Positions 21,001 through 24,000 of a stretch of 64,000 nucleotides of DNA are shown one piece after another. The position numbers are program-made. The DNA lies in IMG/VR virus record IMGVR_UViG_2531839193_000016; one strand, 5' to 3'. The DNA is from a virus (Duplodnaviria; Heunggongvirae; Uroviricota; Caudoviricetes). Positions within the stretch are counted from its first letter, which is position 1. Every line of letters begins with the position of its first letter.

Positions 21001-24000
21001 GGACGGGTAAACAGCTGCTTGCCGAGCGTTTCCCTGACACGTCGCGCCTGCTGCTGGAAGACTGGGAGCGTTATCTCGGGCTTCCCGAGTGTGATATGGC
21101 CGGAGCCACCCTCACGGAGCGACAGCGTTATGCCGGAAATAAATACCGGATGAAGCCCTCGCTGAACCGTGAATTTTATATCCGGTTTGCGGCGGAGTTT
21201 GGTTATCAGATTGACATTCAGCCCTCACCGGATTCGCAGTGGGTCAGTATTGTCACGATTAACAGTGAAACCGGCTACCGGAATATGAATGTGCTGGATG
21301 ATATTCTCACGCCGCTGCGTATTTATGAAGGCGGTGCGCTGGAATGTATTCTGAACCGTTATAAGCCTGCATGGCAGACGTTTATTTACGTTTATGCAAA
21401 CAGCCATGAAGAGGAGACTATTTAATGTTTCATGTTGATAATAATTCCGGCGTGGCGAATATGCCTGCGCTGGCACCGGCGCAGAGTAATACCACCACCT
21501 GGTTTACCGAAGGTGACGGACAAAAGGTATCAGCTGGATTGGTCAGGACTGGCTGAATATTCTCCAGGCCGAACTGCTGAATATTCTGGCTGAAGCCAGT
21601 ATTCAGCCGGATAAGGCGCAGTTAAACCAGCTTACGCTGTCCATTAAAGCCATTATCGCTGCGAATGCCTTTTCCCGGAAAAATAACCTGAAAGAAATTG
21701 CTGATGCCGGTGCGGAGGCCCAGCGTCTGGCCCGTGGTTATCTTGGTCTGGGGACGCTTGCCACAAAAAACAGTCTTGGTCCCGCTGACGTTAATGCCCT
21801 GGCGAAGGATCAGAATCTCGCCGACCTGGAGAATAAGGGAACCGCCCGTAATAATCTGGATGTTTACAGCAAAAGCGAAGGTGATAACCGTTACCTGCGC
21901 AGGGAGCAGAACGGCGCAGACATTCCGGATAAAGGGGCTTTTATCGATAACGTCGGTTTACGGGAAACGGTAAACAGGGCGGCGAATGCCCTGCCATCGG
22001 ACGGCACCGCCGTTGCCGCGAACAGGCTGGCAAATGCCCACACAATTAATGGTGTTCCCTTTGACGGGACGCAGGATATCACTATCTCATCAGGAACAGT
22101 AACCGCCATAAGACTGGGGTCGGTGACCGCACATATGCCCGGAACATGGGAAAGCTGGGATCTGAATCTGGGGGGCGGCAATGTTCTTACCGGAATTAAA
22201 GTACAGGATGTCGGTAAGAATACGGCAGATAACGTCGGCGGCGTGTATTACCGGCCGTTGCAGTATCTGTTAAATGGAGCATGGGTGACGGCTGCAAGTA
22301 TATAATGATATTCAGAAGGCCTTCCGGCCTTCTTTATTACTGTGGCTGCTCAGGCCATTTAATGGCGTTAAATTCAGCTTCTGTTTTAATGGCGGGTAGT
22401 TCCATTTTCTTCACCTGACTGATGTATGCCATCCATTGGGTAAGTGCTGCTCTGTCTTCATCGCTGATGGTGCCCAGTTGTAGCTCCGTTCTCCAGTCAT
22501 TAATTTTTTCATATGCCTGATTAAGATATGACTGGCGCATTGCTTCCAGTTTTCTTGCGTAGTTAACCGGAATACGGGAGATTATGCCATTATCAAACTT
22601 CCAGTTTCCTGAAATATCCGTGCCTTCAGGGAGTTCATCGACCTCAACCACAGAAAACCCCGCAGGATACAGCGCCGAGGCGTCCTGTGATATTGAGCAG
22701 ATAACGCCGCTGTCAGGTGTTATGCAAAGTTTATATTTTTTGGTGAATAATGGCAGGGATTCGTAGAAATCCTTACCATCTTCACTCTGGAAATACTGAA
22801 CATTATTACCATATGGCATATTTTCAGGATAATAACGGGTTATATTTTTTAGTTCCATAAAATCCTCCTGGAAATAAATCTGTTTTAAAATATATTATTT
22901 ACTGACTATTTATAACTGAGATACCGTAATCCATGTACCTCCGACTAATTTTTGCAGGGGTCTGAATGCTATAAAATCGTTTGAAGCATCAACTTTACTG
23001 TCAATCTGCAGGCCTGCCATAACATTACCGTACGCAGAGTAATATGCCCCACCGTACATTACCTGCCTGTTCTCTGCTCCCAGCCTGATATCCTGGATAT
23101 ATCGGGAATCCGCATCCTGCTGTGTTATACCAGAAGTGATGTTTATGTCCTGCGTCCCGTCAAAGGGAACCCCATTAATATTTCTTGGGGTGGCGAGTCT
23201 ATTCGCGGCAACGGCGGTGCCGTCCGATGGCAGAGCATTCGCCGCCCTGTTTACCGTTTCCCGTAAACCGAGGTTTTCAGGAAAGCCAGGATTAACTCTG
23301 TTTTATTCCTCATGCGACAATTCCGGCTTTTTATAATAAGGAAATCGTATGCTGATTGGGTATATCAGGGTGTCAACAAATGACCAGAATACGGCGCTAC
23401 AAAGAAATGCGCTGGAATGTGCAGGATGTGAGCTGTTTTTCGAAGACAGAATAAGCGGTAAGACAAGGGAGCGTCCCGGACTTAAACGCGCATTAAAGCG
23501 ACTCCGGCCAGGGGATACCCTGCTGGTCTGGAAACTGGATCGCCTTGGACGCAGTATGCAGCACCTTGTCCTTTTAACAGAAGAACTCCGGCAACGCGGC
23601 GTTAACTTCCGCAGCATTACGGACAATATTGATACATCCACTCCCATGGGACGTTTCTTTTTCCATATAATGGGCGCGCTGGCGGAAATGGAGCGGGAAC
23701 TCATTATTGAACGTACACGCGCGGGTCTTGCTGCTGCCCGTGCTCAGGGGCGTCATGGCGGCAGACCTCAGAAACTGACAGAGAAAGAGCGGGAGCAAAT
23801 CGCCCGTTTGCTGGCTAATGGCGAGTCCCGTAAACAAATCGCACTGATATTTGATATTGGCCTTTCCACCCTTTATCGTTATTTTCCTGCCTCACCAGCT
23901 CCGTCACCAAAAGTACCGTGACGCTTTTTTGAATTTCCGCAAAACACATATTTTTCAGCGGTCGCTATTCTGACTCTGTTTAATTCAGAAACAGGCAGAA

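What the first reader, a model, noticed from the sequence alone, without database searches (positions are those of the whole stretch)
21955..23269. The invertible segment carries only one fibre chaperone
About 120 bp just inside each gix site are near-identical inverted repeats encoding the same ~40 residues (…[26 protein letters not shown]…[11 protein letters not shown]), after which the two arms diverge into unrelated ~75-residue C-termini. Only the silent arm is followed by a tfa gene; the expressed arm runs into a convergent terminator at 22315-22338. Mu-type G segments carry a chaperone for each orientation, so this layout is a variant.
Basis: seen in the sequence. Interest (0 to 1): 0.45.

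Follow-up and report, generated by a model that had tools for sequence, protein, structure and literature searches.

The report
Mu-type fibre switch, one chaperone
This is a genuine flip-flop DNA switch in a Mu-like E. coli prophage that swaps the tip of the tail fibre. It carries one fibre-folding chaperone gene instead of the usual two. The layout is real and common in E. coli, so it is a modest variant of a known system that leaves one open question: how the chaperone-less tip folds.

Summary
**Verdict: observation confirmed, interpretation partly right.**

- **The switch:** window 21941-23283 is a Gin/gix-type invertible segment of an Sp18-type Mu-like prophage. It has Mu-like gix sites, internal inverted repeats, a serine invertase at 23349-23921 and only one tfa gene (22337-22858, minus strand).
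- **It flips in nature:** near-identical prophages in other E. coli genomes carry the segment in the opposite orientation.
  - The two C-termini are not unrelated. Both are about 75-residue tips of the Mu S / P2 H / P1 S family.
  - Neither tip carries a detectable intramolecular chaperone domain.
  - The "expressed" fibre gene is frameshifted in this window (A5 to A4 at about 21521), probably a homopolymer sequencing error.
- **The layout is common:** it occurs in about 237 of 5426 complete E. coli genomes, including O157-type prophages, and independently in P2-like prophages of other genera.
- **The chaperone-less tip is functional:** it is under strong purifying selection (dN/dS about 0.09).
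- **The Tfa looks like a generalist:** the same Tfa (N-domain 82-95% identical) sits behind four very different tips.
- **Favoured reading:** one Tfa serves both arms.
- **Unresolved:** how tfa is expressed in the window's orientation. No promoter was found.
- **Interest:** low to moderate.

The parts
21425..22305 (+). Tail fibre gene: a constant part (Mu S-like, about 180 aa), one fibre repeat, then the plus-arm tip. In this window it is frameshifted by A5->A4 at about 21521. It is intact (882 nt, 293 aa) in most relatives.
   Evidence: Residues 1-191 match Mu S (5yvq_A, 8ju3_A) at E about 1e-46.
21941..21966 (.). gixL crossover site. The reverse complement reads TTCCCGTAAACCGACGTTATCGATAA, 23/26 identical to the SfMu Sc-side gix.
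21946..22094 (.). Left arm of the internal inverted repeat, which encodes the shared about 40 residues.
22078..22302 (+). Plus-arm tip (allele 'A', 75 aa, of the [11 protein letters not shown] class). No tfa lies behind it.
   Evidence: dN/dS is 0.09.
22314..22333 (.). GC-rich hairpin between the convergent fibre and tfa stops. A T-rich tail follows it only on the + strand.
22337..22858 (-). The single tail fibre assembly gene (173 aa; Caudo_TAP; Mu U homologue).
22859..22909 (-). AT-rich 51-nt non-coding leader between the minus-arm stop and the tfa ATG (AGGAGG Shine-Dalgarno). It is 79-121 nt in relatives, against 0-17 nt in the canonical phages examined.
22910..23146 (-). Minus-arm tip (allele 'alpha', 78 aa plus stop), silent in this orientation.
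23130..23278 (.). Right arm of the internal inverted repeat.
23258..23283 (.). gixR crossover site: TTCCCGTAAACCGAGGTTTTCAGGAA, 21/26 identical to the SfMu gin-side gix.
23349..23921 (+). Serine DNA invertase (Gin/Pin/Hin family, 190 aa).
   Evidence: It is about 76% DNA identity to pinE.

Best explanation
**What it is (shown).** This is a minimal G-type host-range switch in an Sp18-type Mu-like prophage.
- A Gin-family invertase flips a 1.3-kb segment between two gix sites that lie inside the tail fibre gene.
- A constant about 180-residue Mu-S-like N-terminus is therefore joined to one of two alternative about 75-residue receptor-binding tips of the Mu S / P2 H / P1 S tip family.
- The segment carries a single Mu-U-type chaperone gene (tfa). 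It is co-oriented with, and downstream of, only one tip.

**How it most likely works (inferred).**
- The Tfa is a generalist for this tip family and folds both tips.
- In the inverted state it is co-transcribed with the fibre.
- In the state seen in this window it is convergent with the fibre behind a hairpin. It would then have to be made from its own, still unidentified, promoter in or near its conserved leader.

**How sure.** That the switch is real and has a single tfa is near certain. That one Tfa serves both arms has about a 0.45 chance of being right.
For: **The switch itself**
- gix sites, inverted repeats and invertase are present.
- Both orientations occur naturally and the crossover maps to the gix region.
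- The element is a full Mu-like prophage (transposase A/B ... com/mom).

**Both tips belong to a Tfa-dependent family**
- Both tips are homologous to the Mu S/S' tip.
- The Tfa is homologous to Mu U, co-crystallised with the S tip in 5YVQ.
- Every non-invertible phage examined with a homologous tip has a tfa 0-17 nt downstream. The plus tip therefore probably needs a Tfa.

**The Tfa looks like a generalist**
- Its N-domain is 82-95% identical in prophages whose tfa-linked tip is alpha, beta, gamma or delta.
- Those four tips are only 37-51% identical to each other. The tfa-less tips A and B fall in the same identity range, 38-51% to alpha-delta.

**The tfa-less arm is functional and usually the one in register**
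- The plus tip has dN/dS 0.09, as constrained as the tfa-linked tips (0.09-0.10).
- The tfa-convergent orientation is the one found in most assemblies: about 18-20 against 5-6 in the close clade, and 182 genomes in the O157-type clade.

**tfa has features of a separate unit**
- It has its own strong Shine-Dalgarno sequence and a 51-121 nt leader instead of tight coupling.
- A variant that lost the minus arm and the invertase still keeps an intact convergent tfa.
Against: - No sigma-70-like promoter was found on the tfa strand upstream of tfa.
- The late-promoter motif shared by Plys and PI is absent there.
- Transcription of tfa in the plus orientation would collide with fibre transcription.
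- No direct evidence was obtained that this Tfa binds the plus tip.
- The tfa-less arm always carries one tip class (ADNxGGVYYRP). This could instead mean that this class has a special property here.
- The apparent generalism of the Tfa could partly reflect recent recombination of tips.
Confidence: 0.45

Rival explanations
1. The plus-arm tip folds and works without any Tfa. The switch then toggles between a Tfa-assisted (and possibly Tfa-capped) fibre and a bare fibre.
For: - No tfa is co-transcribed in this orientation, and no promoter for tfa was found.
- The plus tip is functional by selection and is the majority orientation.
- The tfa-less arm always carries the same tip class, and allele A has lost the xxDSRY segment.
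- TfaMu stays on the mature fibre and contributes to receptor recognition (PMC9608196, citing North et al.). Its presence or absence could therefore itself change specificity.
Against: - The same tip class (ADNIGGVYYRP) in P1, SfMu, POP15, PBES 02 and pPE4 is always followed directly by its own tfa.
- The tip is only 75 aa with no recognisable chaperone domain.
Confidence: 0.25
2. The plus orientation is an OFF or decaying state. Without a co-transcribed chaperone the fibre misfolds, so only the inverted state yields infectious phage. The missing tfa is simply a deletion.
For: - Canonical relatives have two tfa genes.
- One-tfa and two-tfa versions coexist among related P2-like prophages, for example L014 against L013. 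This suggests that loss of a tfa happens.
- Many copies carry frameshifts.
Against: - The plus tip has dN/dS 0.09, with 18.5 synonymous against 6.5 non-synonymous changes.
- Two diverged plus-tip alleles, A and B, are both kept open.
- The layout is conserved across prophages whose constant part is only 70% identical.
- The plus orientation is the commoner one.
- Sp18 is reported as intact and efficiently packaged (PMC2669165).
Confidence: 0.12
3. The plus tip is folded by a Tfa supplied in trans by another resident prophage, for example the lambdoid tfa at 38571-39152 in this window.
For: - A second Caudo_TAP-like gene exists in the window (E 6e-11 to the Tfa profile).
- E. coli genomes usually carry several tfa genes.
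Against: - That gene matches only through the conserved C-terminal domain, and it sits behind a different (gp37-like) fibre.
- It is not co-regulated with Mu late genes.
- Dependence on a chance co-resident prophage would not sustain purifying selection across many host backgrounds.
Confidence: 0.06

Closest known systems
Phage Mu / SfMu G segment (S-U | U'-S', gin)
   Same: - The prophage backbone is the same (A/B transposase ... com/mom).
- The fibre constant part is the same, and the crossover falls at the same place (NLGL[QR]ETVN).
- The gix sites are nearly identical.
- The invertase sits on the same side.
- The tip domain family and the Tfa family are the same.
   Different: - There is one tfa instead of two.
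- The variable arms are about 100 aa instead of about 300 aa, so the segment is 1.3 kb rather than about 3 kb.
- A 51-nt leader precedes tfa instead of a 1-nt gap.
- Extra genes (SASA-esterase/DUF6645, DUF1378, DUF826) lie between the invertase and com/mom.
Prophage Sp18 of E. coli O157:H7 Sakai
   Same: [quoted passage not shown] It is predicted intact and is efficiently packaged (PMC2669165).
- The O157/STEC-type loci examined here (L006) have the same one-tfa layout.
   Different: - The tip alleles differ (B/gamma against A/alpha), and the Tfa is 61% identical.
- Equating the L006-type locus with Sp18 is an inference. It rests on hits in O157:H7 genomes and on Sp18 being the only Mu-like prophage in Sakai.
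P1 C segment (cin) and e14 P segment (pinE)
   Same: - A serine invertase flips alternative fibre C-termini.
- The P1 S tip is 52% identical to the plus tip.
- pinE is about 76% identical at the DNA level to the L006-type invertase gene.
   Different: Both carry a tfa for each orientation: P1, and e14 with tfaE and tfaP (PMC12529663).
One-tfa invertible fibre segments in P2-like prophages (Siccibacter L014, Enterobacter L033, Salmonella L039)
   Same: The gene order is the same: fibre (+), no tfa, then tfa (-), alternative arm (-), invertase (+).
   Different: They have different fibre tip families and a P2-type baseplate context. They were only inspected by ORF listing and a Tfa profile.

Membership tests
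Gin/Hin/Cin/Pin-type invertible tail-fibre segment (Mu G type) | Adjacent serine DNA invertase (resolvase catalytic domain plus HTH) | tested here: met
   PF00239 at 1.6e-51 and PF02796 at 4.9e-15 for 23349-23921.
Gin/Hin/Cin/Pin-type invertible tail-fibre segment (Mu G type) | Two 26-bp gix/hix-type sites in inverted orientation | tested here: met
   Sites at 21941-21966 and 23258-23283 are 23/26 and 21/26 identical to the SfMu gix sites. The inner half-sites are identical to each other.
Gin/Hin/Cin/Pin-type invertible tail-fibre segment (Mu G type) | Crossover inside the fibre ORF, giving a constant N-terminus with alternative C-termini | tested here: met
Gin/Hin/Cin/Pin-type invertible tail-fibre segment (Mu G type) | The segment is actually found in both orientations | tested here: met
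   L001 against L002 and L099 against L100. Inverting L001 at the gix sites reproduces L002 with 4 mismatches in 1600 nt.
Gin/Hin/Cin/Pin-type invertible tail-fibre segment (Mu G type) | A cognate tfa (U / U') behind each alternative fibre arm | tested here: not met
   There is one tfa only. 31 nt separate the plus-arm stop from the tfa stop.
Gin/Hin/Cin/Pin-type invertible tail-fibre segment (Mu G type) | Fis-dependent recombinational enhancer in the 5' part of the invertase gene | not tested
   Known for gin and hin from the literature (recalled from memory). It was not examined here.
Caudo_TAP tail fibre assembly proteins (Mu U / P2 G / lambda Tfa) | Conserved C-terminal Caudo_TAP domain and full-length similarity to Mu U | tested here: met
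   PF02413 at 4.8e-19. 5yvq_B at E 4e-16. 26-34% identity over the full length to SfMu and P1 Tfa proteins.
Caudo_TAP tail fibre assembly proteins (Mu U / P2 G / lambda Tfa) | Binds and is required for trimerisation of the fibre tip(s) | not testable with these tools
   This needs co-expression or binding experiments, or multimer modelling.
Fibres with a C-terminal intramolecular chaperone (Peptidase_S74 type) | Recognisable C-terminal chaperone or autoprotease domain | tested here: not met
   Neither full-length fibre has a Pfam family at E<=0.1. The tips are 75-78 aa and homologous to Tfa-dependent tips.

The most novel reading that the evidence does not exclude
The inversion changes more than the tip. 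One state would give a Tfa-assisted and possibly Tfa-capped fibre. The other would give a fibre of the ADNxGGVYYRP class that has become independent of a co-transcribed chaperone. In an otherwise strictly Tfa-coupled tip family, this would be a natural chaperone-independent tip, or a single invertible-segment Tfa expressed independently of orientation and serving many tips.
Probability: 0.25. Interest if true: 0.5.

Novelty: new variant of a known kind. Interest (0 to 1): 0.3.

Why it matters
- **The general rule it challenges:** tail fibre chaperones are considered cognate partners of their fibres, and fibre engineering usually moves fibre and chaperone together.
- **What this lineage would show if one Tfa serves both arms:** a widespread natural lineage keeps one Tfa while shuffling at least six tip alleles, and expresses one functional tip with no chaperone in its operon. 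That would mean either broad Tfa promiscuity or a chaperone-free tip. Either would be useful for retargeting phages and tailocins.
- **Practical point:** annotation pipelines call the silent arm a partial 'phage tail protein', and often call the fibre hypothetical, in hundreds of E. coli genomes.
- **Limits:** the system itself is a known kind and the effect is incremental.

Tried and rejected
- **Structure prediction failed.** AlphaFold2 of the 91-aa plus tip, with the only alignment obtainable (9 sequences), gave mean pLDDT 42.8 and pTM 0.21. The model is unusable, so no fold search was run.
- **Homologue search was shallow.** The search for homologous proteins on the tip returned only 8 proteins.
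- **Promoter searches were negative but not conclusive.**
  - No sigma-70-like site was found on the tfa strand in the window or in L007. Only one weak 9/12 site was found in L004, outside the conserved leader.
  - A candidate late-promoter motif derived from Plys and PI (CCGCAAAnCCnGCCC) occurs at 7970 in the window but not near tfa. The motif is loosely defined, because PP was not recovered either.
- **Intramolecular chaperone idea rejected** (plus tip homology).
- **'Second tfa missed on the plus strand' rejected**. The only other Tfa-like gene is in a lambdoid remnant.
- **Papers that could not be read:** Nguyen 2001 (carotovoricin inversion) and North & Davidson 2021 are not held.
- **No literature statement found.** Searches found nothing about one-chaperone invertible segments.

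Full report

Largely yes.
- The repeat finder reports inverted repeats at 21946-22031 / 23193-23278 (86 nt, 93% complementary) and 22045-22094 / 23130-23179 (50 nt, 84%).
- Translated, both arms read ...[37 protein letters not shown] and then diverge.
- The only ORF between the arms is a 173-aa protein on the minus strand (22337-22858). It matches Pfam Caudo_TAP (PF02413, 4.8e-19).
- The plus arm stops at 22303-22305. Only 31 nt remain before the tfa stop, and they hold a GC-rich hairpin at 22314-22333 (-14.4 and -14.8 kcal/mol on the two strands, z about -4). A T-rich tail follows it only on the + strand.
- A serine invertase (PF00239 1.6e-51, PF02796) follows at 23349-23921.

**2. Context**

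The window is E. coli. An identical copy in strain JE86-ST05 is annotated as a complete Mu-like transposable prophage. Its gene order is:
- repressor, transposase A, B, gam, Mor-family activator and lysis genes;
- head, tail and baseplate genes (gp46, gp47, YmfQ/gp48-like);
- the fibre, tfa, a partial fibre and the recombinase;
- a DUF6645/SASA esterase, DUF1378, DUF826, com and mom.

Fibre residues 1-191 match the constant part of Mu S (5yvq_A, 8ju3_A; E about 1e-46). The crossover falls at the same motif as in Mu (NLGLQETVN).

The crossover sites are:
- gixL at 21941-21966, whose reverse complement reads TTCCCGTAAACCGACGTTATCGATAA;
- gixR at 23258-23283, TTCCCGTAAACCGAGGTTTTCAGGAA.

They are 23/26 and 21/26 identical to the two gix sites found in SfMu.

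**3. It does flip**

- Strain NCCP 13983 (L002) carries the same prophage with the segment inverted. The fibre is then 296 aa, ends in the other tip, and is followed by tfa on the same strand.
- Inverting L001 in silico anywhere within 2054-2091 / 3336-3373 reproduces L002 with 4 mismatches in 1600 nt. Those positions correspond to window 21952-21989 / 23234-23271, the region containing the gix cores.
- L099 and L100 are another such pair.
- Among close relatives, about 18-20 genomes have the window's orientation and 5-6 have the inverted one.
- In the O157/STEC-type clade, 182 genomes match the tfa-convergent orientation over at least 80% of the query.

**4.

(a) The two C-termini are not unrelated.
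- Their last 42 residues are 31% identical (E 4e-7).
- In a multiple alignment both align over their whole length with the tips of SfMu S and S', P1 S and a P2-like H. The shared pattern is ..RY[VI]..[IV]RLG...G.V[LIM][TS]G...[YF]RP[LVI]Q..[IL]NG.W...
- tblastn gives 42-52% identity to those phage fibres. phmmer aligns both to the last about 70 residues of Mu S/S'.

(b) There is no sign of an intramolecular chaperone.
- Neither fibre has any Pfam family at E<=0.1.
- The tip is only 75 residues.

(c) The 'expressed' gene is frameshifted in this window.
- An A5 run is A4 at about 21521.
- The window differs from JE86-ST05 by many other single-base homopolymer indels. This is probably a sequencing artefact.
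- Most relatives have an intact 882-nt gene.

(d) The refutation test 'a second tfa I missed' is not met for the prophage. A profile search does find another Tfa-like gene at 38571-39152 (-). It follows a 1029-aa lambdoid side-tail-fibre gene in a separate remnant.

**5. How unusual is the layout?**

Canonical relatives have two tfa genes, tightly coupled to their fibres. SfMu has S-U | U'-S' with 1-nt gaps, and P1 is alike.

The one-tfa layout is nevertheless conserved and common.
- Every relative examined has the order fibre(+), hairpin, tfa(-), leader, arm(-), invertase(+), or its inversion.
- 237 of 5426 complete E. coli genomes have a match. 'Tail fiber assembly protein' never appears twice in any listed row.
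- A survey of invertase loci in other Enterobacterales found two-tfa segments (L013, L021, L038 and others) and also one-tfa segments in P2-like prophages (Siccibacter L014, Enterobacter L033, Salmonella L039). L014 lacks the small tfa that its relative L013 has.
- Inversion in a Mu prophage of EPEC E2348/69 has been shown experimentally (PMC4272514). I did not verify that it belongs to this family.

**6. Comparative evidence on mechanism**

Across twelve loci the combinations are as follows.

| Locus | tfa-less tip | tfa-linked tip |
|---|---|---|
| window / L001 / L002 | A | alpha |
| L003, L005 | A | beta (Mu-S-like) |
| L004 | A | none |
| L006, L007 | B | gamma |
| L096 | B | delta |
| L098 | B | alpha |
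| L099, L100 | B | beta |
| L097 | decayed (frameshifted arms) | decayed |

- The tfa-less arm always carries a tip of one class: A or B, with ADN[VI]GGVYYRP, like P1 S and SfMu S'.
- The tfa-linked arm carries alpha, beta, gamma or delta.
- All tip pairs, including A/B against alpha-delta, are 37-51% identical. The exception is the two B-class alleles, which are 80% identical to each other. The Tfa N-terminal (fibre-binding) domain is 82-95% identical across prophages with alpha, beta, gamma and delta partners. The one diverged O157-type Tfa is still 72-77%. The Tfa therefore does not co-vary with the tip it follows, which argues for a generalist chaperone.
- The tfa-less tip is under strong purifying selection. 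L001 against L003 gives dN 0.038, dS 0.41 and dN/dS 0.09. The tfa-linked tips give 0.09-0.10 and tfa gives 0.11-0.32.
- In every non-invertible phage with a homologous tip, a tfa follows within 0-17 nt: P2-like pro147, POP15, PBES 02, Actinobacillus pPE4, and probably Escherichia phage 19-1-2. The family is normally Tfa-coupled.
- Published work reports that TfaMu binds the fibre tip through its non-conserved N-domain, stays on the mature fibre and contributes to receptor recognition (PMC9608196, summarising North et al. 2019).

**7. The unresolved step**

- In the window's orientation, tfa is convergent with the fibre gene, so it cannot be co-transcribed.
- tfa has its own AGGAGG Shine-Dalgarno sequence and a 51-nt AT-rich leader. 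The leader is 79-121 nt in relatives and about 95 nt of it is conserved, travelling with tfa. Canonical systems are tightly coupled instead.
- A variant in mouse strains M1, M3 and M18 has lost the minus arm and the invertase but keeps an intact convergent tfa with that leader.
- These features fit an independent tfa transcription unit. However, neither the sigma-70 scan nor a late-promoter motif shared by Plys and PI finds a promoter there.

**8. Verdict on mechanism**

The switch and its single chaperone are shown. For how the tfa-less arm folds, I commit to these estimates:

| Reading | Probability |
|---|---|
| One generalist Tfa serves both tips, made from an unidentified promoter in the plus state | about 0.45 |
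| The plus tip folds without a chaperone | about 0.25 |
| The plus state is OFF or decaying | about 0.12 |
| A Tfa is borrowed from another prophage | about 0.06 |

**9. Novelty and interest**

- This is a variant of a well-known kind (Mu G, P1 C, e14 P segments). It is common in sequenced genomes and partly noted before for Sp18.
- The one-chaperone point and the constant Tfa paired with shuffled tips do not seem to have been discussed in the papers I could search.
- It would mildly surprise a phage specialist, and it poses a clean, testable question about Tfa specificity. Interest 0.3.

**10. What failed**

- AlphaFold2 on the plus tip gave pLDDT 42.8, so no fold comparison was made.
- The protein homologue search returned only 8 sequences.
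- Two key papers were not available.

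Noticed in passing
window 21521 (also 12147, 12166, 13657, 15722, 16105, 17598, 19764, 24757, 26067, 27550): The window differs from the near-identical JE86-ST05 prophage by many single-base homopolymer indels. One frameshifts the fibre gene. Another (G6->G5 at 24757) splits the DUF6645 gene into ORFs 24007-24792 and 24843-26060. The pattern looks like long-read homopolymer error in one or both assemblies.
   Followed up: partly
window 24007-26060 (+): A roughly 685-aa DUF6645 protein with a sialate O-acetylesterase (SASA, PF03629) domain, followed by DUF1378 and DUF826 genes. 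They lie between the invertase and com/mom, where Mu and SfMu have nothing. It may be a moron or a carbohydrate-esterase host-range factor.
   Followed up: no
window 37069-42816 (-): A separate lambdoid remnant. It holds a Lom/Ail-like gene (42334-42816), a 1029-aa side tail fibre (39152-42241) with its own tfa (38571-39152), and then IS1 (37069-37766). The Stf contains the Mu S'-like stretch [23 protein letters not shown].
   Followed up: partly
L004 3026-4765 (E. coli M3; also M1, M18): This variant prophage lacks the minus arm and the invertase. It keeps the plus-tip fibre, the hairpin, an intact convergent tfa and its conserved leader. A weak promoter-like site lies on the tfa strand at 4625-4597.
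   Followed up: partly
L001-L007, L096-L100: The tfa-less arm always carries a tip of the ADN[VI]GGVYYRP class (A/B). The tfa-linked arm carries alpha, beta, gamma or delta. Tips recombine freely between prophages while the Tfa stays nearly constant.
   Followed up: yes
L014 3603-5908, L033 4060-6001, L039 2896-4997; L024/L029: P2-like prophages of Siccibacter, Enterobacter and Salmonella also have invertase-linked fibre segments with a single tfa. In L024 and L029 the tfa-less arm is followed by an 84-aa ORF of unknown nature.
   Followed up: partly
window 7970-7984 (+); L009 Plys and PI regions: The regions upstream of the lysozyme and protease genes share CCGCAAAnCCnGCCC plus a TTA[CT]GCT element. 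This is a candidate C-dependent late-promoter motif of this prophage.
   Followed up: partly
L008 (E. coli DLI.5a) and L097 (AST46): Some genomes carry two copies of this prophage family, one heavily deleted and inserted in ypdB. The two invertible segments are in opposite orientations, and one copy has decayed arms and a frameshifted invertase.
   Followed up: no
window 34399-35592 (+): A 397-aa ORF that looks by eye like a P4-type tyrosine integrase lies next to IS fragments. It appears to mark another integrated element between the Mu-like prophage and the lambdoid remnant. No domain search was run on it.
   Followed up: no
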